Origin: Sulfurovum sp.
GTDB taxonomy: Bacteria; Campylobacterota; Campylobacteria; Campylobacterales; Sulfurovaceae
Reading direction: 5' to 3'
DNA length: 64,000 nucleotides
Assembly: GCF_036568385.1 (NCBI RefSeq)
Contig: NZ_DATCSP010000026.1
Span: 16,224 to 80,223, forward strand
In this document: piece by piece, positions 8,549 through 39,568 of the stretch
How positions within the stretch are numbered: the first letter of the stretch is position 1
Layout of the letters: every line of letters starts with the position of its first letter
Position numbers and translations under genes: made by a program
The notes under the pieces: generated by a model
What the model was told of the DNA's origin: nothing
Seen by the model: the letters and a program-made list of their open reading frames with translations, nothing else
Databases searched by the model: none

Positions 8549-9364
8549 ATGAAAAAACACTTTACCTCTGTCCTCTCCGGCGCGTTTGGAAAATTCGCCT
8601 CCAAAGCCTTCTCTCCCTCTGTACAAAGCTTTATCAACAGGGGCTATGTCAAACTGATGGGGCTTGATATGAGCGAATTTAAAGACCCCGCTGACTATCC
8701 GACACTGAACAAGCTCTTTACAAGGGCCTTTGAGATCCCCAGAGCCCTGCCTGAAGAACAGGATGCCCTGATCTCCGGTGTGGATGCCCTGATCACAGAT
8801 GCAGGTACGATCAGAGAGGGGAAAGCCTACCAGATCAAAGGAATGAGCTACAGTATAGAGAGACTTTTTGGAGAACACCATAAAGATGCAGCCAGCAGAG
8901 TGGAAGGAGGGGAGTACATCAACTTCTATCTTTCGCCAAAAGATTACCACCGCTATCATATGCCGATGCGTCTCAAAGTAAGATCATTGACACATATTCC
9001 GGGCAAACACTATCCAGTGAACTTTCCGCTGCTGCGAAACAAAGTGGACCTCTTTATCGAAAATGAAAGAGTGGTCATAGAGTGCGAGGATGAAAAGGGA
9101 AGAATACATGTCCTGGTCCTTGTCGCTGCCCTGAACGTTGGCCAGATGGTGGTGACGTTCGAGGAAAAGGTGAGAACCAATTCCGAGATAAGAGAACCTG
9201 TCCATTATGAGTATGAAGATCTCTGGGTGGAGAGGGGCGACTTTTACGGGTGGTTCGAAATGGGTTCAACCATAGTCACTTTTTCTGAAAAGGGAAGTAT
9301 TTTGCCGGATGTGGAGATAAATCAGAAAGTAAGTTTTACAGATGTTTTAGGTAAAGTATTATAA
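8549..9364 (+). CDS. psd: phosphatidylserine decarboxylase proenzyme
   Basis: 'LSPKDYHRYHMP' and the 'FEMGSTIV' self-cleavage (GST) site. The ORF opens at 8468, but the ATG at 8549 has an AGGAA RBS about 8 nt upstream. Confidence 0.85.
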   Translation: MKKHFTSVLSGAFGKFASKAFSPSVQSFINRGYVKLMGLDMSEFKDPADYPTLNKLFTRAFEIPRALPEEQDALISGVDALITDAGTIREGKAYQIKGMSYSIERLFGEHHKDAASRVEGGEYINFYLSPKDYHRYHMPMRLKVRSLTHIPGKHYPVNFPLLRNKVDLFIENERVVIECEDEKGRIHVLVLVAALNVGQMVVTFEEKVRTNSEIREPVHYEYEDLWVERGDFYGWFEMGSTIVTFSEKGSILPDVEINQKVSFTDVLGKVL

Positions 9365-12125: not shown

Positions 12126-12253
12126 AAGAAACTTTATATAGAAATGGTCTTTAAACGAAAGTATAGCTTCTTTTAAATATACGGGTATTGAATTGATGCC
12201 CTGATATAATCCGAATTTTGGTATATTACGCGAAAAACAAAAGTGGATAGGCC

Positions 12254-12958
12254 ATGTCAAAATCTCTTCTAACCGACCTTTTAGCAGTCCTTTGTATCGG
12301 TGCATCCTTCCTGGTGCCGTCTGACTATCAGCATGCACTGCTGTTCACAGGACTTTTTGCACTTTCCGGTGCCATTACCAACCAGCTTGCTATTCATATG
12401 CTGTTTGAAAAGGTTCCTCTCCTCTATGGTTCCGGTGTGATAGAAAAGAACTTCGATCTCTTTAAGAGCTCCATCAAAAAGATGATGATGCAGCAGTTTT
12501 TCACCAAAGCACAGTTGGAAGACTTTTTTGCGAAGGAAGAGAAAAAGATCGACCTTGGACCCCTGGTCGAAAACACCGACTTCTCTCCTGCATTTGATGC
12601 ACTCTCCAAAACGGTCATGGAGTCAAAGTTCGGCGGGGCCATTTCCATGTTCGGCGGTGAAGCGGCCCTGGAGGGGTTACGGGAACCGTTCTCAAAAAAG
12701 CTCAGATCCGCCGTTGCTTCCATCGTCTCCTCTTCGGCATTCAAAGCACAGCTTGAACACCAGATCAGGCATTCCGATCTGAGCGAAGATATGCTGGCCA
12801 CCGTAGAAGCACTCATCACGAGCCGCCTTGAAGCGCTGACCCCCAAAATGGTCAAAGCACTGGTGCAGGAGCTCATCAAAGAACATCTGGGCTGGCTGGT
12901 CGTCTGGGGCGGTGTGTTCGGCGGGCTTATCGGTTTGGTCAGCGCATTTCTGATCTAA
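12254..12958 (+). CDS. DUF445 family membrane protein
   Basis: 'GAITNQLAIHMLFEKVP' and C-terminal 'HLGWLVVWGGVFGGLIG', characteristic of DUF445. Confidence 0.7.
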   Translation: MSKSLLTDLLAVLCIGASFLVPSDYQHALLFTGLFALSGAITNQLAIHMLFEKVPLLYGSGVIEKNFDLFKSSIKKMMMQQFFTKAQLEDFFAKEEKKIDLGPLVENTDFSPAFDALSKTVMESKFGGAISMFGGEAALEGLREPFSKKLRSAVASIVSSSAFKAQLEHQIRHSDLSEDMLATVEALITSRLEALTPKMVKALVQELIKEHLGWLVVWGGVFGGLIGLVSAFLI

Positions 12959-12981: not shown

Positions 12982-13548
12982 TTAAACATCTGCTTTTTTC
13001 CTGGCTGCCATAGAGGCCTTCATCGTCCTGTATCCCAGGTAGTCTTCATCCCAGAACGCCTGAAGGTGCAGCAGTTCGCAGCTGTCACCAAAGCTTGATT
13101 CCAGTTCACCTTCCTGGAGCATAAAAGCAGGGTTGGATGGGGCCCTTTCATTCTCCGGATGGTCCAAAAATGTCTCGAACAGGAGGATGCCCCCTGGCTT
13201 CAGCGCTTCTATCATCTGGGGAAAAAGTCTGCGTTCAAGGAAGTAGGTGCAGACGATCAGGTCATACTGCGCTTTGGGAAGCCTGTAGGTATCAAGATCG
13301 ACCTCCTTCGGATGGACATGTGCTACCCCTTTGAGCCGTGCCAGTGCGACACCTGAAATGTCCAATGCATCCACTTCAAAGCCCATGGAAGCCAGGTATT
13401 TGCTATGCCTTCCCATGCCGCATGCAATGTCGAGCGCCTGTGTTCCGCCAGCCAGTTTTGCATACTCCGTGATCAGTTTGACGGGTGTGTCGGGTATTTG
13501 ATTGTTCTGGTATTTTTCATCCCATCTTGTCTTGTCTTCCAATGCCAC
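12982..13548 (-). CDS. class I SAM-dependent methyltransferase (TehB-like)
   Basis: 'ALDIACGMGRHS' SAM motif I. The ORF runs to 13653, but that would overlap the xth start, so the in-frame GTG at 13548 is proposed. The start is uncertain. Confidence 0.7.
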   Translation of the reverse strand: MALEDKTRWDEKYQNNQIPDTPVKLITEYAKLAGGTQALDIACGMGRHSKYLASMGFEVDALDISGVALARLKGVAHVHPKEVDLDTYRLPKAQYDLIVCTYFLERRLFPQMIEALKPGGILLFETFLDHPENERAPSNPAFMLQEGELESSFGDSCELLHLQAFWDEDYLGYRTMKASMAARKKADV

Positions 13549-17022: not shown

Positions 17023-18489
17023 CTATTGGTGGCTCTCATCCTCTGCAAGTGTTTCGATGAACTTCACCATCATTCTTACACCGGCACCGGAAGCACCGGA
17101 TGGGTTTTCACCCCAGGCATGCTCTACAAAGGCCGGACCCGCGATGTCTATGTGTGCCCATTTGTCCGCGTGGTCCTCATCGATGAATTCAGAAAGGAAC
17201 TGACCTGCGGTGATGGCTCCGCCATAGCGTGTATTGGAGATGTTGCAGATATCTGCAACTTCTGACTTGAGGGTCTTTTTCAGATAACGGTTGAAGTCCA
17301 GTCCGGTAGCCAGTTCACCGGCATTCTTTGCCTCTTTGACGACAAGTGATCTGAGTTCTTCAGAGTTGCTCATGACACCCGATGTATAGTTTCCTACACC
17401 GACGACACAGGCACCAGTGAGCGTGGCAAGGTCAAAGAGATAGTCCGCTTTGACCTCCTGCTGTGCGTAGCAGAGCGTATCGGCAAGTACCAGGCGCCCT
17501 TCAGCATCCGTATTGCGTACTTCGATCGTTTTCCCGTTCTTGGCCACGAGTACGTCATCGGGTTTGTAGGCATCTCCGCCTATCATGTTTTCCACTGCAC
17601 CGATGAAACCGTGTACCTCGACAGGCAGGTCCATCTCTGCAATGGCCTTCATGACACCGATCACCGCTGAGCCGCCGCTTTTGTCCGCTTTCATGGTCAC
17701 CATGAAGTCAGCAGGTTTAAGACTGAGCCCACCGCTGTCATAGGTAAGACCTTTACCTACCAGGGTCACCACACATTTAGGGTTTTTCGGTTTGTGGGTC
17801 AGGTGGATGACCCTCGGTGCATGACGGCTTGCGCGTGCAACAGCCAGCAGGGTTTCCATCTTCTCTTTGCGAAGCTCTTTCGGTTTGAGTACATTACAGA
17901 CAAGGCCGGTGTCGTCCGCCATACCTTCCGCGATACCTGCCAGGACTTCCGGATAGCAGTCATCCGGTGTGGTATTGACGATGTCGCGCGTGAAGTTCGT
18001 CGCATCTGCCGTGATCTGTGCCTTATGGATCGCTTCAGAGGCTTTTTCTATATCGATCTCCAGCTCAGAGTACTCTTCAAGCGATACGGTGATATGCTTC
18101 ACAGGGTTTTTCTTTTTTTTGCTTTTGTAGGTTTGGAAACTGTAGGCTCCCAGGATGAATCCCTCGATCATGGCACGCAGCGTATAGGTACATCCCTTGT
18201 TCGTATAGGTCGCCACTTTGATAGATCTGTACTGGGTCCCTTGCAACGCTTTGATCGCCGAAGCAGCTGCCGGTCTGATGGAGCTGCTTGTCAAGGATTC
18301 TGCACCGACATAGAGCCTGTTCTTCTCCAGAAGCAGACAGGTCTCATCCTGTCCTGCCTCAAAACCTGCTTTCTTTAAGAGTTTTTTGTCCTGGACAAAA
18401 CGGTGTTTGGTGTCTTTGTCCACCACGATGATGATCTCTACATCGCTGCTTAGGTCGGCTACGGGAAGTGCGGTTAGTTCGAAATTCAT
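17023..18489 (-). CDS. pepA: leucyl aminopeptidase (M17)
   Basis: 'VGKGLTYDSGGLSLKP' and 'NTDAEGRLVLAD' M17 signatures. Confidence 0.9.
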   Translation of the reverse strand: MNFELTALPVADLSSDVEIIIVVDKDTKHRFVQDKKLLKKAGFEAGQDETCLLLEKNRLYVGAESLTSSSIRPAAASAIKALQGTQYRSIKVATYTNKGCTYTLRAMIEGFILGAYSFQTYKSKKKKNPVKHITVSLEEYSELEIDIEKASEAIHKAQITADATNFTRDIVNTTPDDCYPEVLAGIAEGMADDTGLVCNVLKPKELRKEKMETLLAVARASRHAPRVIHLTHKPKNPKCVVTLVGKGLTYDSGGLSLKPADFMVTMKADKSGGSAVIGVMKAIAEMDLPVEVHGFIGAVENMIGGDAYKPDDVLVAKNGKTIEVRNTDAEGRLVLADTLCYAQQEVKADYLFDLATLTGACVVGVGNYTSGVMSNSEELRSLVVKEAKNAGELATGLDFNRYLKKTLKSEVADICNISNTRYGGAITAGQFLSEFIDEDHADKWAHIDIAGPAFVEHAWGENPSGASGAGVRMMVKFIETLAEDESHQ

Positions 18490-30551: not shown

Positions 30552-30770
30552 TTAGAGTGGAGTTACGTTTTCAGCTTGTGGGCCTTTTTGACCTTCACCA
30601 ACTTCAAATGTTACTGCTTGACCTTCAGCAAGTGTTACACGCCCGCCGTTAGGATTGTTTACTTGACGAAAATGTACAAATACATCATCTCCACCATTCT
30701 CTTGTTGGATGAATCCGTAACCTTTTTCATCATTGAACCATTTAACTGTACCGTTGACTGTTTCTGCCAT
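30552..30770 (-). CDS. cold-shock protein, CspA family
   Basis: '[15 protein letters not shown]' RNP-1 motif and 'VFVHF' RNP-2 motif. Confidence 0.95.
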
Positions 30771-31015
30771 TGTTATACCTTTGGGTAAAATTTACACTTC
30801 TAGGGTTTCCCTATTCAAGCGGAATCTAAAATCGGAGAGAGTCTTTCGGGGGTCTAGCAATAACACTTAACACACGATAGATGAACTCGAACCTATCTTT
30901 CATCAAATATATTGTAGCTTATTTTTTAAGATATAAGCTTACATAAAAAAATATATTTATTTAAATTTATTTTATAGGGTCGATTAGGGGCAAATGCCCC
31001 CTTATTGCGTGATCA

Positions 31016-31492
31016 TTATCGTAGTTCTGTCAATTTCAAAAAGAGTTGGTTCATCTCTTCCAGCGATCTCTTTGCCAGTTTCTGGACCTCATCTTTAGAT
31101 CTGTCATACATTTGGGTAAGATCTTTTTGTTTCTCTGACCAGAGATCTTCGCTTTCCATTTTGGCAAGATGTGCTCTCAGTGCCGCAATGTCCAGCTCTT
31201 CCTGCAGACCATTGGAAACCTTATGCGTGAAATTGTCCATGGTGCCTTTAAGCTTCTCTATCTGGTCTCGTGCTTCCATCACGCCCAAATGCGCTTTGAG
31301 CTCGGCTTCCTCTTCAAAATGATCGTAGGCATCTTCAAGTTTGCCTTTGACACGCGAAAGACGCTTTTTCAGATCAAGCCAAAACACGGTCGCATCTTCG
31401 CTGAGATCTTCACTGAACGATTCTATCTTCTCTTCCGCTTTCTCCAGTGACTTTTGAGACTCTGAGATAAGCGCTTTAAACTCTTTTTTCAT
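31016..31492 (-). CDS. hypothetical coiled-coil protein
   Basis: 158-aa charged, heptad-like sequence. It is followed by a GGGGC-AAAT-GCCCC hairpin at about 30985-31000. Confidence 0.5.
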   Translation of the reverse strand: MKKEFKALISESQKSLEKAEEKIESFSEDLSEDATVFWLDLKKRLSRVKGKLEDAYDHFEEEAELKAHLGVMEARDQIEKLKGTMDNFTHKVSNGLQEELDIAALRAHLAKMESEDLWSEKQKDLTQMYDRSKDEVQKLAKRSLEEMNQLFLKLTELR

Positions 31493-36471: not shown

Positions 36472-36562
36472 GGACAGTTGGGTGAGTTGGCTGAAACCAC
36501 ATCCCTGCTAAGGATGCGTACTCGTAAGGGTACCGAGGGTTCGAATCCCTCACTGTCCGCCA
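36472..36562 (+). tRNA. tRNA-Ser (anticodon GCU)
   Basis: Hand-folded. Acceptor GGACAGT/ACTGTCC; anticodon stem CATCC/GGATG with loop CTGCTAA; long variable arm; T-arm GAGGG-TTCGAAT-CCCTC; encoded GCCA end. Confidence 0.9.
36544..36562. repeat. left copy of direct repeat (attL-like), the 3' end of tRNA-Ser
   Basis: AATCCCTCACTGTCCGCCA recurs at 38513-38531 with one mismatch. Confidence 0.65.
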
Positions 36563-37027
36563 TTAAAAAAACTTATAATTCTTCATAAAAATCCTTATAA
36601 TATATCAAATTCCCTTGACATCGTACTAAATAAGTTAATTAGATTTAAATTTCGAAAATAGCAATTTAATGATAATTAATTAAATATTTGTACTTATTTA
36701 GACTAAAAGTGGCCAATTAAGTGGCTGATCTTATAGTTTAAACTTTTCCGGCCACTTTAGATAATAATTTTTCCGGCCACTTTCAACATAAACACTATAT
36801 TTTATGTTTCATAAGATAGGTACTTTAACTATAATTGGCCAATTAAGTGGCCGAAATTAGCATTGTTTAATACTGATGCCCAGGGAATAAGCCCATAAGT
36901 GGTCAAATGTCTATCCCTAACTAACCGCCATAAAATTGATAAGGTGCAACTAATTGATTGAAATAGAAATGTAAGATTGAAGCTATACATGATAAACTAA
37001 TTAAATTTATTTAAAAAGGGAAGAGTA

Positions 37028-38305
37028 ATGAAAAATCAATTTAAAGGTTTTTATTCTCCATCAACTCATAATTATAAAAGTATGTGGGAATCTGATAAGA
37101 CTTTATTTGTCTTTGATACAAATGTACTATTAAACCTTTATGCTTATACAAAGGATACTAGAAAAGATTTTTTTAAAATTATGGATAAAGTATCAGATCG
37201 TATATGGCTACCTTACCATGTAGGATTAGAATATCAAAAAAACAGACTATCAATTATAAAAATTGAAAAAAGTATTTTTAATCAGATAAATAAATATATA
37301 GAAAATATTGAAAAAGTATCATCACTTGAGAAAATAAAAGAATTGAAATTACATCAACGTTTTCCAGAGTTAGAAAGTGAAACAGAAAATATGGTAAAAA
37401 AAATTCATGATACTTTAAAAATATATAAGAAAGAAGTCGTATCTGTAAATAAATTACAACCTGATGTTAGATCACATGATAAGATAAGAACCGTAATAGA
37501 TACATTATTTGAAGAAAAAGTTGGTGAAAAGCCTGAAAACCAAGAATGGTTAGACAAGCTATATAAAGAAGGTGAAAAAAGATATTCTAATAAATTTCCA
37601 CCTGGCTATGAAGATGAAAAAGAGAAAAAGGATCATAAAAGTTTTTCATATGACGGATTAAATTATATTCCTATGTATGGTGACTTAATTATTTGGAAGC
37701 AAATTATAGAAAAAGCTGAAAACAGTGAGTATGAAAATTTGATTTTTATTACAGATGATGTAAAGGAAGATTGGTGGTACATCATAGACTCTAATGGTAC
37801 AAAAAGGATTGGAGCAAGAGCTGAATTACGTGAAGAAATATGTAATCAGACAGATATAAATAATTTTGAAATATTAAATACAACAATGTTTTTAGAAGAT
37901 GGTAATAAGTTTTTAGATACAACTATTACAAGTGACTCTATTAATGAAACTAAAAAGAAGTTTGAAAATGAAAGGGATAAATATAGAACTATTTCTGAAA
38001 TTGCTGATAGATATACTGAATTAGAGAAATATATTTCTAAGACATCTAGTCTTGATGAATATCAAAAGTCATTAAAAAAAGACCTTGATAATATATATGA
38101 CTCAGATATTTATCAAAAGTTATTTAAAGACCTTTATGATCTAAATGTTAATAACTCATACAGTATTGATGAAGATTATCTAAAGTCATTAAAAGACTTT
38201 TATAATATAAAAGTTAATAACTCATACAGTATTGATGAAGATTATCTAAAGAAACTCCAAGAACTTGGTAAGGCTTTTAAAGACAAAAAAAAGAAAGATG
38301 ATTAA
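37028..38305 (+). CDS. PIN-like (DUF4935-type) nuclease domain protein with a repeat-containing helical C-terminus
   Basis: 'LFVFDTNVLLNLY' N-terminal acidic motif, 'PGYEDEKEKK', 'YGDLIIWKQII' and 'IFITDDVKEDWWY' match my memory of the PIN-like family. GGGAAG RBS upstream. Confidence 0.65.
   Translation: MKNQFKGFYSPSTHNYKSMWESDKTLFVFDTNVLLNLYAYTKDTRKDFFKIMDKVSDRIWLPYHVGLEYQKNRLSIIKIEKSIFNQINKYIENIEKVSSLEKIKELKLHQRFPELESETENMVKKIHDTLKIYKKEVVSVNKLQPDVRSHDKIRTVIDTLFEEKVGEKPENQEWLDKLYKEGEKRYSNKFPPGYEDEKEKKDHKSFSYDGLNYIPMYGDLIIWKQIIEKAENSEYENLIFITDDVKEDWWYIIDSNGTKRIGARAELREEICNQTDINNFEILNTTMFLEDGNKFLDTTITSDSINETKKKFENERDKYRTISEIADRYTELEKYISKTSSLDEYQKSLKKDLDNIYDSDIYQKLFKDLYDLNVNNSYSIDEDYLKSLKDFYNIKVNNSYSIDEDYLKKLQELGKAFKDKKKKDD
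38126..38257 (+). repeat. 66-nt tandem duplication (2 copies) inside the PIN-like gene
   Basis: Units 38126-38191 and 38192-38257 share an identical 39-nt core (38147-38185 = 38213-38251). They encode KDLYDLNVNNSYSIDEDYLKSL and KDFYNIKVNNSYSIDEDYLKKL. Confidence 0.85.
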
Positions 38306-38496
38306 GTAAACTGTTATTTATATTTTGACACTTTTTCGAGGTTATACTAGATTTTTACATCAGTTGTTCACTAATATCTAGCTAGAAAATTATGTAAAGA
38401 TTTTTACCTATATGAGCTAAATTTTAAAAATTAAAAGTGGCTTCTGAAATGGCTGATTTTGACTTTGTTTGAACTATATACCCTAAAACAGGGCTT

Positions 38497-38510
38497 CAAG
38501 TGGCCACTTG
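38497..38510. promoter_or_regulatory. perfect 14-bp palindrome CAAGTGGCCACTTG next to the attR-like repeat
   Basis: Self-complementary. Built from two inverted copies of the AAGTGGCC motif iterated elsewhere in the islet arms. Confidence 0.45.
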
Positions 38511-38512
38511 TT

Positions 38513-38531
38513 AATTCCTCACTGTCCGCCA
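38513..38531. repeat. right copy of direct repeat (attR-like)
   Basis: AATTCCTCACTGTCCGCCA matches the tRNA-Ser 3' end at 18 of 19 positions. Confidence 0.65.
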
Positions 38532-38542
38532 CTTTAATCCCC

Positions 38543-38568
38543 TATATACCGTATATACCGTATATAAA
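38543..38568. repeat. 9-nt tandem repeat TATATACCG (2 full copies plus a partial third)
   Basis: TATATACCG TATATACCG TATATAAA, read directly from the sequence. Confidence 0.7.
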
Positions 38569-38755
38569 TCACTTTTTTAAATTTTGTTACAACAAATGCA
38601 TGATTTGATGTTTGTTCTAAATAAGTGTCCATCAAAGAGGGGTCATTCCAAACTGTTAATGTCGGGAGGAAACGAGTAGAATAAAAACAAGACGAGACAA
38701 ATAGCTTTAACTATGCTATACTAATATTTTTTAATAAAATTTGTGAGGAAAAACA

Positions 38756-39295
38756 ATGGATAATACAAAAAGAAAATATCTAAAAGGTTTATATATCCTG
38801 ATGGGCATGCAACTGGCATGGATCATCATAACAGTATTGTCTTATCAGTTGATCATTCTAGACAAATATACGTCATGGGTCGATCTTGCATTTTACAGCA
38901 GTATATTCACTGTATTAAATGGGTTTGCAACTATAGCATATGGACTTTATTTATACTTTTATGTATTCAGAGACAGGCTCTCCAAAAACAATATGATCGT
39001 TGCAAAAAAAGTGTTGGATCCTTTGGCTGAATTTGCAGCAAAAATGATAAAAATACTTGTCCGTGCGTTCAATGTTTCAGAGAGCGTCGGAAAGTACACC
39101 TTGATCGTATCTGGTTCTTTTGTCGTGCTGTTCCCTCCGATAGTCAGTTTAATGTACGAAAGCTATTTTGCTTTTTTCCTATTGATCATATTTTATGGTT
39201 ATGTAACGATTTACAGAAATATTTTTATCGAAGCTGTCAAAAGCAGACTAAGTGATCACGTGAAAGTTAGACTAAAAGATGTAGAGTGGATATAA
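38756..39295 (+). CDS. hypothetical 4-5 TM membrane protein
   Basis: AT-rich 179-aa ORF with a GAGGAAAAAC RBS region upstream and several long hydrophobic segments. No family recognised. Confidence 0.5.
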   Translation: MDNTKRKYLKGLYILMGMQLAWIIITVLSYQLIILDKYTSWVDLAFYSSIFTVLNGFATIAYGLYLYFYVFRDRLSKNNMIVAKKVLDPLAEFAAKMIKILVRAFNVSESVGKYTLIVSGSFVVLFPPIVSLMYESYFAFFLLIIFYGYVTIYRNIFIEAVKSRLSDHVKVRLKDVEWI

Positions 39296-39568
39296 ATAGT
39301 CAAAATAATTTTTTAAAGCATATTCAATTATTACAACCCTATAGATTTATACATTTTTAATTCGTTCGAGCTCTTCCGATGTGAAGTGATGATCTTATCT
39401 GATAATAGCAACCAAATTAAAGGGAAGTTTAAAAGGGGAGGAGTTCACATGAAAAAATTTCATGTGTTTGGTTGCTATGTAAGAAGAAGTGTACACGATG
39501 TACACTAACGGTAAGTAAACATTGTTATACTTTTAAAGAGAAAACCTAGAAATATAAGGATCAAATGT

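What the first reader, a model, noticed from the sequence alone, without database searches (positions are those of the whole stretch)
36544..38531. Integrase-less 2-kb AT-rich islet at tRNA-Ser(GCU), bounded by a duplicated tRNA 3' end, with one PIN-like nuclease as cargo
The last 19 nt of the tRNA (AATCCCTCACTGTCCGCCA, 36544-36562) recur at 38513-38531 as AATTCCTCACTGTCCGCCA (18/19). That is the classic attL/attR footprint of site-specific integration into a tRNA gene. The DNA between the copies is far more AT-rich than the flanks: my hand count is 27% G+C at 37081-37140 versus about 52% at 8701-8760 and 17041-17100. The ORF track shows no integrase, excisionase, transposase or replication gene in any frame. 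The only long ORF is a 425-aa PIN-like nuclease. So this is either a heavily decayed island or a minimal cargo cassette mobilised in trans. A single nuclease gene parked at a tRNA hot spot is the typical context of anti-phage or toxin-type genes. I know of no described system that consists of this protein alone.
Basis: partly seen in the sequence, partly recalled or inferred. Interest (0 to 1): 0.72.

Follow-up and report, generated by a model that had tools for sequence, protein, structure and literature searches.

The report
Integrase-less tRNA-Ser islet carrying PIN_8 nuclease
A 2-kb piece of foreign, AT-rich DNA was spliced into the end of a serine tRNA gene of a Sulfurovum bacterium and has no recombinase gene of its own; this kind of islet is ordinary, but its only gene belongs to a large, unstudied nuclease family that repeatedly appears as the lone passenger of very small mobile DNA.

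Summary
tRNA-Ser(GCU) lies at 36472-36562. Its last 19 nt recur 18/19 at 38513-38531, which no shuffle reproduced. The 1969 bp between the copies has 26% G+C against 48% elsewhere.

It is a true insertion. None of 80 related Sulfurovum loci carries it. In relatives the intact tRNA is followed directly by the sequence that here follows the second repeat copy. Two relatives have tyrosine integrases at the same tRNA.

The islet has no integrase. It holds a third, degenerate att copy (36912-36930), a duplicated ~115-nt right-arm module, and nine AAGTGGC-type motifs confined to its non-coding arms. It therefore looks like two tandem integration remnants, similar to a cis-mobilisable element (CIME).

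The cargo (37028-38305) is an intact 425-aa PIN_8 (PF18476) protein. The family has about 7000 clusters at 50% identity. I found no reported function, no conserved partner gene and no match in a defence database.

PIN_8 genes recur in repeat-flanked 1.5-3 kb inserts at tRNA-Leu, tRNA-Pro and a kinase gene 3' end. They also occur on 2-6 kb plasmids and at a phage genome end.

The islet is a known kind. A defence or addiction role for the nuclease is inferred, not shown.

The parts
36472..36562 (+). Intact tRNA-Ser(GCU), the integration target and left boundary
   Evidence: ARAGORN and Rfam RF00005 at 55.7 bits. It is 100% identical to the tRNA of relatives L004, L006, L011, L018 and L023.
36544..36562 (+). 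attL core: the last 19 nt of the tRNA, from the T-loop AAT to the CCA end
36563..36930 (.). Unit 1: an ORF-less, AT-rich remnant of about 370 nt that ends in a degenerate att copy
   Evidence: No ORF of 60 aa or more. It carries the D1 repeats and the AAGTGGC motifs.
36695..36733 (+). 39-nt repeat D1, copy a (AAAAGTGGCCAATTAAGTGGCTGAT core)
   Evidence: family D1. The other copies lie at 36821 and 38423.
36744..36791 (+). 25-nt tandem repeat, 2 copies, each holding TTTTCCGGCCACTTT. This is the AAGTGGCC motif inverted, and it resembles the attB junction TCCGCCACTTTA.
   Evidence: TRF, family D15.
36815..36911 (+). Internal copy of the right-arm module, including D1 copy b at 36821-36859
   Evidence: Together with the adjoining att copy, 36815-36931 aligns to 38417-38531 at 61% identity. 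The score is 20.5 against -5.8 +/- 4.7 (maximum 8.5) in 500 shuffles.
36912..36930 (+). Degenerate third att copy, TATCCCTAACTAACCGCCA (15/19)
   Evidence: It is the only other match with 4 or fewer mismatches in the 64 kb on either strand. See, family D5.
37028..38305 (+). Cargo gene: a 425-aa stand-alone PIN_8 (PF18476) nuclease-like protein
   Evidence: Pfam E=9.6e-64. The invariant acidic residues D30, E68, D151, D219, D243, D244 and D248 are all present. The AF2 model has pLDDT 83. A 100% identical protein in NCBI is named a Sulfurovum sp. MAG protein.
38110..38251 (+). 66-nt tandem repeat, 2.2 copies at 90% identity, inside the gene. It encodes a 22-aa repeat in the hypervariable C-terminal tail.
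   Evidence: TRF, family D2, and the tail repeats seen across the family.
38417..38512 (+). Right-arm module: D1 copy c at 38423-38461 and the palindrome CAAGTGGCCACTTG at 38497-38510
38513..38531 (+). attR core: an 18/19 copy of the tRNA 3' end, forming the right boundary of the insert
38532..38677 (+). Ancestral tRNA trailer (CTTTAATCCCCTATATACCG ... TATAAATCACTTTTTT ... TTGTTACAACAAATGCA). It is the chromosomal flank, not part of the insert.
   Evidence: It is homologous to the sequence directly after the intact tRNA in L023 (94% over 35 nt, E=5e-9; alignment A2) and in L075, L011, L025 and L020.

Best explanation
The 1969-bp segment 36563-38531 is foreign DNA that was placed between tRNA-Ser(GCU) and its original trailer by tyrosine-integrase site-specific recombination. 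The crossover fell within the last 19 nt of the tRNA gene. This regenerated an intact tRNA at attL and displaced a 3'-end copy to attR.

The islet now has no recombinase gene. It appears to be the remnant of two successive integrations, or one accretion, by elements sharing the same arm sequences. Unit 1 (36563-36930) has no ORF. Unit 2 (36931-38531) carries one gene. Each unit ends in an AAGTGGCC-motif arm followed by an att copy. Functionally it is a CIME-like islet. It cannot move by itself, but a cognate integrase supplied by another element could still recombine it.

The surviving cargo is an intact stand-alone PIN_8 nuclease. I infer that it is a metal-dependent nuclease of the VapC-like PIN group. 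I also infer that it is retained because it acts in genetic conflict. The most likely role is anti-phage or anti-plasmid abortive defence, with the fast-evolving repeat-bearing C-terminal tail acting in sensing or regulation.

Shown: the insertion, its boundaries, the lack of an integrase, the duplicated arm, the family assignment and the intact catalytic residues. Inferred: the integrase mechanism, the order of events, present-day mobility, the substrate and the biological role.
For: Evidence for an insertion:
- The repeat is non-random.
- The compositional break is extreme.
- The segment is absent from 80 relatives, although NadE-PPI-PyrF-small ORF-tRNA-Ser is conserved in them.
- Relatives show the empty-site arrangement.

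Evidence for an integrase mechanism:
- L018 has a 290-aa Phage_integrase (E=6e-20) 31 nt after an identical tRNA, plus a MobA/VirD2 relaxase.
- L033 has a 411-aa integrase with an Arm-DNA-bind_2 domain 81 nt after the tRNA.
- L037 has an analogous 2.4-kb islet at the same tRNA, with an 18/19 repeat and different cargo.

Evidence for tandem units and arm sites:
- A third att copy is present.
- The arm module is duplicated.
- Nine AAGTGGC/GCCACTT motifs lie in 695 nt of arms. In 20000 shuffles the maximum was 2, and none of the motifs lies in the ORF.
- One motif spans the attB-type junction CCGCCA|CTT.

Evidence that decay is a real route:
- In Aliarcobacter butzleri a 2.07-kb islet is bounded by an exact 17-nt tRNA-Leu 3'-end repeat. 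It holds a PIN_8 gene and a C-terminal integrase fragment next to the tRNA.

Evidence on the cargo:
- PF18476 is matched and the acidic set is invariant.
- There is no conserved neighbour. Of 113 neighbouring ORFs from 76 loci, 72 are singletons.
- There is no conserved small upstream ORF.
- The family occurs on 69 plasmids, including 2.1-6 kb ones, as the last gene of phage phiCp-A and in PHROG 9788.
- Some neighbours match defence models: mad3 at E=3e-44 and PDC-M72A at E=2e-13, and Pfam marks HNH_5 and HisKin-conflict/iREC next to others.
Against: - No integrase remnant can be detected in this islet. Deletion of an integrase is therefore inferred by analogy.
- The AAGTGGCC motif was found in no other locus and in no viral contig. 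No cognate integrase or parent element has been identified.
- The arms of the integrase-bearing elements in L018 and L033 are not similar to those here.
- The att copy of the tRNA-proximal unit is more degenerate than the distal one, so a simple order of events does not follow.
- For function: there is no PADLOC hit and no structural match in PDB or BFVD beyond a weak match to a 'PIN like domain' protein.
- No experimental data exist for any family member.
- A free active PIN nuclease without an antitoxin needs an unexplained self-control mechanism.
Confidence: 0.62

Rival explanations
1. The islet is a live, non-autonomous mini-cassette. The unit consisting of PIN_8, an att site and arm sites never carried its own integrase. 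It excises as a small circle and integrates using an integrase supplied in trans by another element in the cell. This resembles a CIME, or an integron-like cassette located at a tRNA gene.
For: - Both arms keep dense, statistically non-random motif clusters and nearly intact att cores.
- The arm plus att module is repeated, as cassette ends would be.
- Minimal repeat-flanked inserts with PIN_8 as the only ORF recur elsewhere: L137 (92-nt repeat of a histidine-kinase 3' end, 1517-bp unit), L098 (27 nt, 1488 bp), L161 (118 nt, 1621 bp), L145 (tRNA-Pro) and L116 (a duplicated mobV 5' region of about 144 nt).
- 12 of 79 PIN_8 loci have flanking repeats, against 2 of 198 control gene loci.
- Several of these units are too small to have lost anything but an integrase.
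Against: - No circular form, empty-site polymorphism within one population, or cognate integrase was observed.
- The A. butzleri, L145 and L138 islets do contain gene remnants (an integrase fragment, a transposase fragment, an extra ORF). This favours decay.
- The repeats differ in sequence and length between loci, so no common recombination site exists.
- The junction search in metagenomes found nothing.
Confidence: 0.22
2. PIN_8 is a selfish maintenance or mobility gene rather than a host-beneficial defence. One version is an addiction toxin with an unrecognised RNA or self-contained antidote. Another is a nuclease that promotes its own spread. Either would explain why it alone survives in decayed elements and on tiny plasmids.
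For: - It is the sole accessory gene on 2-6 kb plasmids.
- It is the lone survivor in at least four repeat-flanked islets.
- VapC-group PIN domains are classic toxins (PMC5499597).
- Structured repeats lie upstream of the gene.
Against: - There is no conserved antitoxin ORF.
- No Rfam family is matched and no regular tandem RNA repeat lies upstream as in type III systems.
- The same motifs also lie downstream of the gene, next to attR, which fits recombination arms better.
- PIN domains have no known strand-transfer activity (established knowledge).
Confidence: 0.12
3. The repeat is a chance or fixed feature, and the segment is ordinary chromosomal DNA.
For: None beyond the short length (19 nt) of the repeat.
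Against: all contradict it. The repeat is non-random, the composition is foreign, the segment is absent from relatives, and relatives show the empty site.
Confidence: 0.02

Closest known systems
Cis-mobilisable elements (CIMEs) and other integrase-less remnants of ICE/IME-type integrative elements (definition in PMC6323972; see also PMC10201445)
   Same: It is flanked by attL and attR copies of a tRNA 3' end. It has no integration or transfer genes. There is a footprint of tandem accretion in the internal att copy. The same tRNA site is occupied in a relative by an element carrying an integrase and a relaxase (L018).
   Different: It is very small (2 kb, one gene). No cognate ICE has been identified. 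Mobilisation has not been shown. The described examples are mainly from Firmicutes, whereas this is a Sulfurovum (Campylobacterota) MAG.
tRNA-proximal island build-up by repeated integration and decay, as described for tycheposons (bioRxiv 10.1101/2020.12.28.424599)
   Same: Successive integrations occur at one tRNA, separated by partial tRNA copies. Degenerate remnants accumulate next to the tRNA. Heterogeneity is highest directly after the tRNA. Here, every relative differs downstream and many contigs break at the tRNA.
   Different: No tycheposon hallmark genes are present. The organism is different, and membership was not tested.
VapC-type PIN toxins of type II toxin-antitoxin systems
   Same: The PIN fold assignment falls in the VapC group (PMC5499597). 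The acidic catalytic residues are conserved. It is carried on mobile elements.
   Different: It has 425 aa rather than about 130. Long helical insertions interrupt the core. It has a further 260-310 subdomain and a hypervariable repeat tail. It has no adjacent antitoxin and is monocistronic.
Single-gene abortive-infection or defence nucleases carried on small plasmids, prophage ends and defence islands
   Same: It is a lone cargo gene on tiny plasmids, at a phage genome end and in tRNA islets. Its distribution is patchy. Some neighbours are defence-related.
   Different: It matches no model in PADLOC-DB v2.0.0. No family member has been tested.

Membership tests
tRNA-targeted site-specific integrative element (genomic islet) | An intact tRNA gene at one boundary and a direct repeat of its 3' part at the other | tested here: met
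   The match is 19 nt at 18/19 identity, running from the T-loop to the CCA end.
tRNA-targeted site-specific integrative element (genomic islet) | Absent from related genomes, with an empty site recognisable | tested here: met
   Absent from 80 loci. The tRNA followed directly by the trailer is seen in L023, L075, L011 and L025. No same-species empty site was found.
tRNA-targeted site-specific integrative element (genomic islet) | Deviant base composition | tested here: met
   26.3% against 48.4% G+C.
tRNA-targeted site-specific integrative element (genomic islet) | Encodes its own tyrosine or serine recombinase next to the att site | tested here: not met
   There is no such ORF and no convincing tblastn hit to the L018 or L033 integrases in the window (best E=0.019). 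It is therefore a remnant or a non-autonomous element.
tRNA-targeted site-specific integrative element (genomic islet) | The same att site is used by integrase-bearing elements | tested here: met
   Integrases lie directly after the identical tRNA in L018 and L033.
CIME (cis-mobilisable element) | Flanked by attL and attR, and lacking both recombination and conjugation genes | tested here: met
   The definition is taken from PMC6323972.
CIME (cis-mobilisable element) | Shares att and arm sequences with a cognate ICE or IME from which it derives | tested here: inconclusive
   The core is shared with the L018 and L033 elements. The AAGTGGCC arm motif was found in no other locus or viral contig.
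CIME (cis-mobilisable element) | Excises or transfers together with an ICE after accretion | not testable with these tools
   Only a static footprint is available: the internal att copy and the duplicated arm.
PIN_8 (Pfam PF18476; cluster PIN_8 of Matelska et al. 2017) | Matches the family HMM above the gathering score | tested here: met
   215.9 bits against a cut-off of 26.1.
PIN_8 (Pfam PF18476; cluster PIN_8 of Matelska et al. 2017) | 4-5 conserved acidic active-site residues | tested here: met
   D30, E68, D219, D243, D244 and D248 are invariant in 45 sequences and present here.
Type II VapBC toxin-antitoxin | A small antitoxin gene immediately upstream in the same operon | tested here: not met
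   No same-strand ORF lies upstream in the window. No conserved upstream ORF was found across 77 loci.
Type III (ToxIN-like) toxin-antitoxin | A regular tandem array of antitoxin RNA repeats upstream of the toxin gene | tested here: not met
   The upstream repeats are irregular and are also present downstream. There is no Rfam hit.
Known anti-phage defence systems (PADLOC-DB v2.0.0) | The protein matches a model of a known or candidate system | tested here: not met
   No hit at E<=1.

The most novel reading that the evidence does not exclude
PIN_8 genes may be the sole cargo of a widespread class of recombinase-less mini-cassettes of 1.5-3 kb. These would insert with 17-144-nt duplications of the target, at tRNA 3' ends, at protein-gene 3' ends and at plasmid mob/oriT regions, by hitch-hiking on whatever site-specific recombination system the host replicon offers. 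In this reading the protein is a new single-polypeptide anti-phage or anti-plasmid nuclease, and its variable-number tandem-repeat tail sets specificity. The window's islet, with both arms and att cores preserved, would then be a still-mobilisable copy rather than debris.
Probability: 0.2. Interest if true: 0.75.

Novelty: new member of a known kind. Interest (0 to 1): 0.45.

Why it matters
The islet itself adds little. It is a clear example, in a little-studied genus, of how tRNA genes collect and erode integrative elements.

The value lies in the cargo. PIN_8 is a very large family, with about 7000 clusters at 50% identity, and no known function. It is monocistronic and has an intact nuclease site. 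It has an unusual tail that evolves by tandem-repeat expansion. It repeatedly turns up as the only passenger of the smallest mobile units, including 2-kb plasmids, repeat-flanked mini-inserts and a phage genome end.

That pattern makes it a concrete and cheap candidate for a new single-gene conflict system. A homologue already sits on a small E. coli plasmid.

Tried and rejected
- Metagenome scan for the exact junction TGTCCGCCACTTTAATCCCCTATA, looking for a same-species empty site: 0 hits.
- Scan of viral contigs for the D1 arm motif: 0 hits.
- Search for the AAGTGGC cluster or arm homology in all fetched loci: none found.
- Right-flank synteny: BioA, ORF179, ORF105 and ADH are not downstream of the tRNA in any relative, so no long empty-site alignment was possible. 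Only the ~100-150-nt trailer is shared.
- Integrase remnant in the islet or window: none.
- PDB sequence search (single sequence and profile), Foldseek against PDB and Foldseek against BFVD: nothing significant except one weak 'PIN like domain' phage protein.
- PADLOC and NCBIfam: no informative hit.
- Rfam at a permissive threshold: only the tRNA.
- Promoter and terminator scan: not above shuffles in this AT-rich DNA.
- E. coli complete genomes: the plasmid homologue occurs in 1 of 5426 genomes, so no useful context.
- A protein antitoxin and a conserved partner gene: rejected.
- Assembly artefact as the source of the flanking repeats: rejected for most loci, because the copies are imperfect and the flanks differ. 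L151 may be a circular plasmid.
- L114 and L116 at first looked like one cassette at two sites. They are the same plasmid locus.
- One strand folding failed because the sequence was too long, and I did not repeat it.
Full report
OBSERVATION

The window holds one tRNA gene, tRNA-Ser(GCU), at 36472-36562 on the + strand (Rfam 55.7 bits). Its last 19 nt (AATCCCTCACTGTCCGCCA) recur once, as AATTCCTCACTGTCCGCCA, at 38513-38531. With up to 3 mismatches these are the only two matches on either strand. The expected number is 0.01, and 0 of 100 dinucleotide shuffles gave two matches. Read against the tRNA sequence, the repeat runs from the last three bases of the T-loop through the T-stem and acceptor 3' strands to the encoded CCA.

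The 1969 bp between the copies has 26.3% G+C, against 48.4% for the rest of the window. No other 1969-nt stretch falls below 41.5%. The only substantial ORF is 37028-38305 (+), 425 aa. All parts of the observation are confirmed.

IT IS AN INSERTION

I fetched 80 loci from other Sulfurovum and Campylobacterota genomes through the neighbouring PyrF protein. The left-hand synteny NadE-PPI-PyrF-small ORF-tRNA-Ser is conserved. None of the 80 has the PIN gene, ORF179 or BioA within 10 kb downstream.

The region after the tRNA differs in essentially every relative, and many contigs stop at the tRNA. Even so, the first ~100-150 nt after the window's second repeat copy (38532 onward: CTTTAATCCCCTATATACCG ... 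TATAAATCACTTTTTT ... TTGTTACAACAAATGCA) are homologous to the sequence that directly follows the intact tRNA in relatives. L023 matches at 94% over 35 nt, E=5e-9 (alignment A2). L075, L011, L025 and L020 begin with CT(T/A)TAA(T/A)CCCCTA. The window's own post-tRNA sequence lacks this trailer.

So relatives show the empty-site arrangement, and the 1969 bp sits exactly between the tRNA end and its ancestral trailer. An exact-junction scan of metagenomes for a same-species empty site found nothing.

THE SITE IS A REAL INTEGRASE TARGET

Two relatives have tyrosine recombinases on the opposite strand, directly after a tRNA whose 3' end is identical to the window's.
- L018 has a 290-aa protein (Phage_integrase, E=6e-20) followed by a MobA/VirD2 relaxase.
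- L033 has a 411-aa integrase with an Arm-DNA-bind_2 domain.

L037 carries an analogous 2.4-kb integrase-less islet at the same tRNA, closed by an 18/19 copy of the 19-mer. Its cargo is unrelated: a repeat lipoprotein, a reversed tRNA-Met and a cold-shock protein.

The window has no convincing integrase homologue anywhere (best tblastn E=0.019).

ANATOMY OF THE ISLET

1. A third, degenerate att copy (TATCCCTAACTAACCGCCA, 15/19) lies at 36912-36930. It is the only other match with 4 or fewer mismatches in 64 kb on both strands.
2. The ~115 nt ending in that copy (36815-36931) align to the ~115 nt ending in attR (38417-38531) at 61% identity. The score is 20.5, against -5.8 +/- 4.7 (maximum 8.5) for shuffles. 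A 39-nt repeat also occurs three times, at 36695, 36821 and 38423.
3. The heptamer AAGTGGC or its complement occurs 21 times in the window. Nine of these lie in the 695 nt of the islet's non-coding arms and none in the ORF. In 20000 shuffles of the arms the maximum was 2. One instance spans the attB-type junction CCGCCA|CTT. The tandem TTTTCCGGCCACTTT units resemble that junction.

I read this as two tandem units. Unit 1 (36563-36930) has no ORF. Unit 2 (36931-38531) carries the gene. Each ends in an arm with recombinase-type binding motifs followed by an att copy. This is the footprint expected from successive integrations at one tRNA followed by decay, as described for tRNA islands (bioRxiv 10.1101/2020.12.28.424599). 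It also fits the CIME category, defined as att-flanked elements that lack recombination and transfer genes (PMC6323972).

The recombinase-binding role of the motifs is an inference. The motif was found in no other locus or viral contig, so no cognate integrase is known.

THE CARGO

The protein matches Pfam PIN_8 (PF18476) at E=9.6e-64 over residues 26-258. It also matches PHROG 9788, of unknown function. It matches nothing in PADLOC or by sequence in the PDB.

The same protein is recorded in NCBI for a Sulfurovum sp. MAG. The next relative is only 60% identical, and the family is scattered over Vibrio, Shewanella, Pseudoalteromonas, Aliarcobacter, Labilibaculum and others. An exhaustive search counts 7008 clusters at 50% identity with E<=1e-3, and 1945 with E<=1e-30.

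In an alignment of 45 members, residues 1-305 are conserved with invariant D30, E68, D151, D219, D243, D244 and D248. The last ~120 residues are hypervariable. The AlphaFold model is confident for residues 1-330 (mean pLDDT 83). It shows a PIN-type alpha/beta core interrupted by long helices. It has no significant Foldseek match in the PDB and only a weak one to a phage 'PIN like domain' protein.

PIN_8 was defined by Matelska et al. 2017 as a VapC-group cluster of unknown function (PMC5499597). I found no paper on its function.

There is no conserved neighbour. Of 113 flanking ORFs from 76 loci, 72 are singletons and the only clusters are near-identical loci. There is no conserved small upstream ORF, and the window has none at all. 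It is therefore not a classic VapBC pair.

CONTEXT ELSEWHERE

The family is typical mobile-element cargo.
- It occurs on 69 plasmids. These include an E. coli 2.1-kb record, Klebsiella ColRNAI plasmids of 5.2-5.4 kb, and Psychrobacter pA48P2 (4.2 kb; RepM, MobV, one small hypothetical ORF and the PIN_8 gene).
- It is the last gene of Clostridium phage phiCp-A, just after a phage tRNA-Ser.
- Some chromosomal copies lie next to defence-type genes. These include an ATPase matching mad3 at E=3e-44, a PDC-M72A match, an HNH_5 gene and HisKin-conflict/iREC proteins.

The window's architecture also recurs.
- In Aliarcobacter butzleri a 2.07-kb islet is bounded by an exact 17-nt repeat of the tRNA-Leu(UAA) 3' end. 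It holds a PIN_8 gene and a C-terminal integrase fragment next to the tRNA.
- A metagenomic contig has PIN_8 and a transposase fragment between a tRNA-Pro and a repeat of its 3' half plus flank.
- L137 has a 1517-bp unit between 92-nt repeats (90/92) of a histidine-kinase 3' end.
- L098, L161 and L138 have further repeat-flanked units.
- L116 has a duplicated mobV 5' region on a plasmid.

Exact flanking repeats of 16 nt or more occur in 12 of 79 PIN_8 loci, against 2 of 198 control gene loci.

HOW IT MOST LIKELY WORKS

Shown: a foreign segment was inserted at the tRNA 3' end with duplication of the core. It has no recombinase. It has repeated arm modules. It carries one intact PIN_8 gene.

Inferred: a tyrosine integrase made the junctions, by analogy with L018 and L033. 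The integrase module was lost, as the A. butzleri remnant shows can happen. The arms could still be recombined by a cognate enzyme. The nuclease is retained because it acts in genetic conflict.

I give about 0.6 to this composite. Within it, I put the insertion itself at about 0.95, a remnant or CIME-like status at about 0.7, and a defence-type role at about 0.4.

The main rival is a native recombinase-less cassette mobilised in trans (0.22). It is supported by the many minimal PIN_8-only inserts. It is weakened by the gene remnants seen in some of them and by the lack of any circle, cognate integrase or common site. A selfish addiction or mobility role for PIN_8 (0.12) is not excluded. Chance is excluded.

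NOVELTY AND VERDICT

The islet is a new member of a known kind. The interesting residue is the uncharacterised PIN_8 family. It is stand-alone, and its tail evolves by tandem-repeat expansion. The window has a 66-nt repeat in 2.2 copies, A. butzleri has a 57-nt repeat in about 5 copies, and 24-29 of 120 homologues have tail repeats. It is repeatedly the lone passenger of the smallest mobile units. That is a testable lead rather than a result. Interest 0.45.

Noticed in passing
window 38110-38251; L085 8979-9263; proteins P0023, P0066, P0072, P0075, P0082, P0090, P0106, P0107, P0110, P0118: The C-terminal tails of PIN_8 proteins are built from lineage-specific tandem peptide repeats of 13-38 aa, often 90-100% identical between copies. 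All start after about residue 325, and many tails end in an acidic stretch. 24-29 of 120 homologues show this. The repeat number looks fast-evolving.
   Followed up: partly
L137 32-1640; L098 160-1674; L161 5656-7394; L138 119-3162; L145 884-3050; L085 7683-9753; L116 1220-3150: PIN_8 genes in unrelated organisms are bracketed by imperfect direct repeats of 17-144 nt of target-type sequence (tRNA 3' ends, a histidine-kinase 3' end, a mobV 5' region). The units are 1.5-3 kb and usually hold no other intact ORF. 12 of 79 loci show this, against 2 of 198 controls.
   Followed up: partly
L037 11146-13519: A related genome has a 2.4-kb integrase-less islet at the same tRNA-Ser, closed by an 18/19 att copy. 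It carries a repeat-rich lipoprotein, a reversed tRNA-Met and a cold-shock protein. A ~72-nt direct repeat lies at 12219-12290 and 13400-13470, once after each cargo gene.
   Followed up: partly
window 38678-39338 (ORF179 at 38756-39295); L181 1292-1949: The low-GC membrane ORF179 next to the islet is nearly an orphan. Its only homologue is 89% identical (91.5% DNA identity) and sits in a different context, after an HNH_5 fragment. Homology starts at 38678, so the stretch after the tRNA trailer is a second, separate mosaic module.
   Followed up: partly
window 38532-38640 and the first ~40 nt after tRNA-Ser in L002, L007, L011, L018, L020, L023, L024, L025, L033, L037, L044, L050, L055, L075: A trailer motif (A/T)A(A/T)CCCC(T/C)AAAA(C/T)A(C)..G follows tRNA-Ser(GCU) across the genus. 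It is present even where an integrase gene comes next (L018, L033). It may be part of the att site or a tRNA processing or terminator element. In the window it is followed by a 9-nt tandem repeat, TATATACCG in 2.7 copies, at 38543-38566.
   Followed up: no
L001, L004, L006, L017, L029, L041, L044, L046 (contig ends): Many assemblies of relatives break within 0-100 nt of the tRNA-Ser 3' end (L006 runs about 420 nt further). This fits strain-level heterogeneity at this hot spot within the sampled populations.
   Followed up: no
L016, L030, L053, L061, L039 (downstream of tRNA-Ser): In another clade the tRNA-Ser is followed by a conserved block. It consists of a ~420-aa ORF that looks DinB/ImpB-like from its N-terminal sequence (no domain search was run), a ~770-aa membrane protein, a 194-aa repeat protein and a valyl-tRNA-synthetase-like gene. 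This may be the ancestral right flank there.
   Followed up: no
L177 3778-5137 (Clostridium phage phiCp-A): The phage's PIN_8 homologue is the last gene of the genome and lies directly after a phage-encoded tRNA-Ser.
   Followed up: no
window 30552-30791: This stretch encodes a product about 70% identical (tblastx) to the stretch of the L037 islet that holds its cold-shock-type gene. The surrounding window region, 30600-31200, has lowered G+C of 35-38%.
   Followed up: no
L116 1220-1363 and 3010-3150; L179: On small plasmids the PIN_8 gene sits immediately upstream of a MobV-type relaxase gene. In L116 the mobV promoter and 5' region are duplicated on both sides of it. This hints at relaxase or oriT-mediated recombination as another way the gene is captured.
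   Followed up: no
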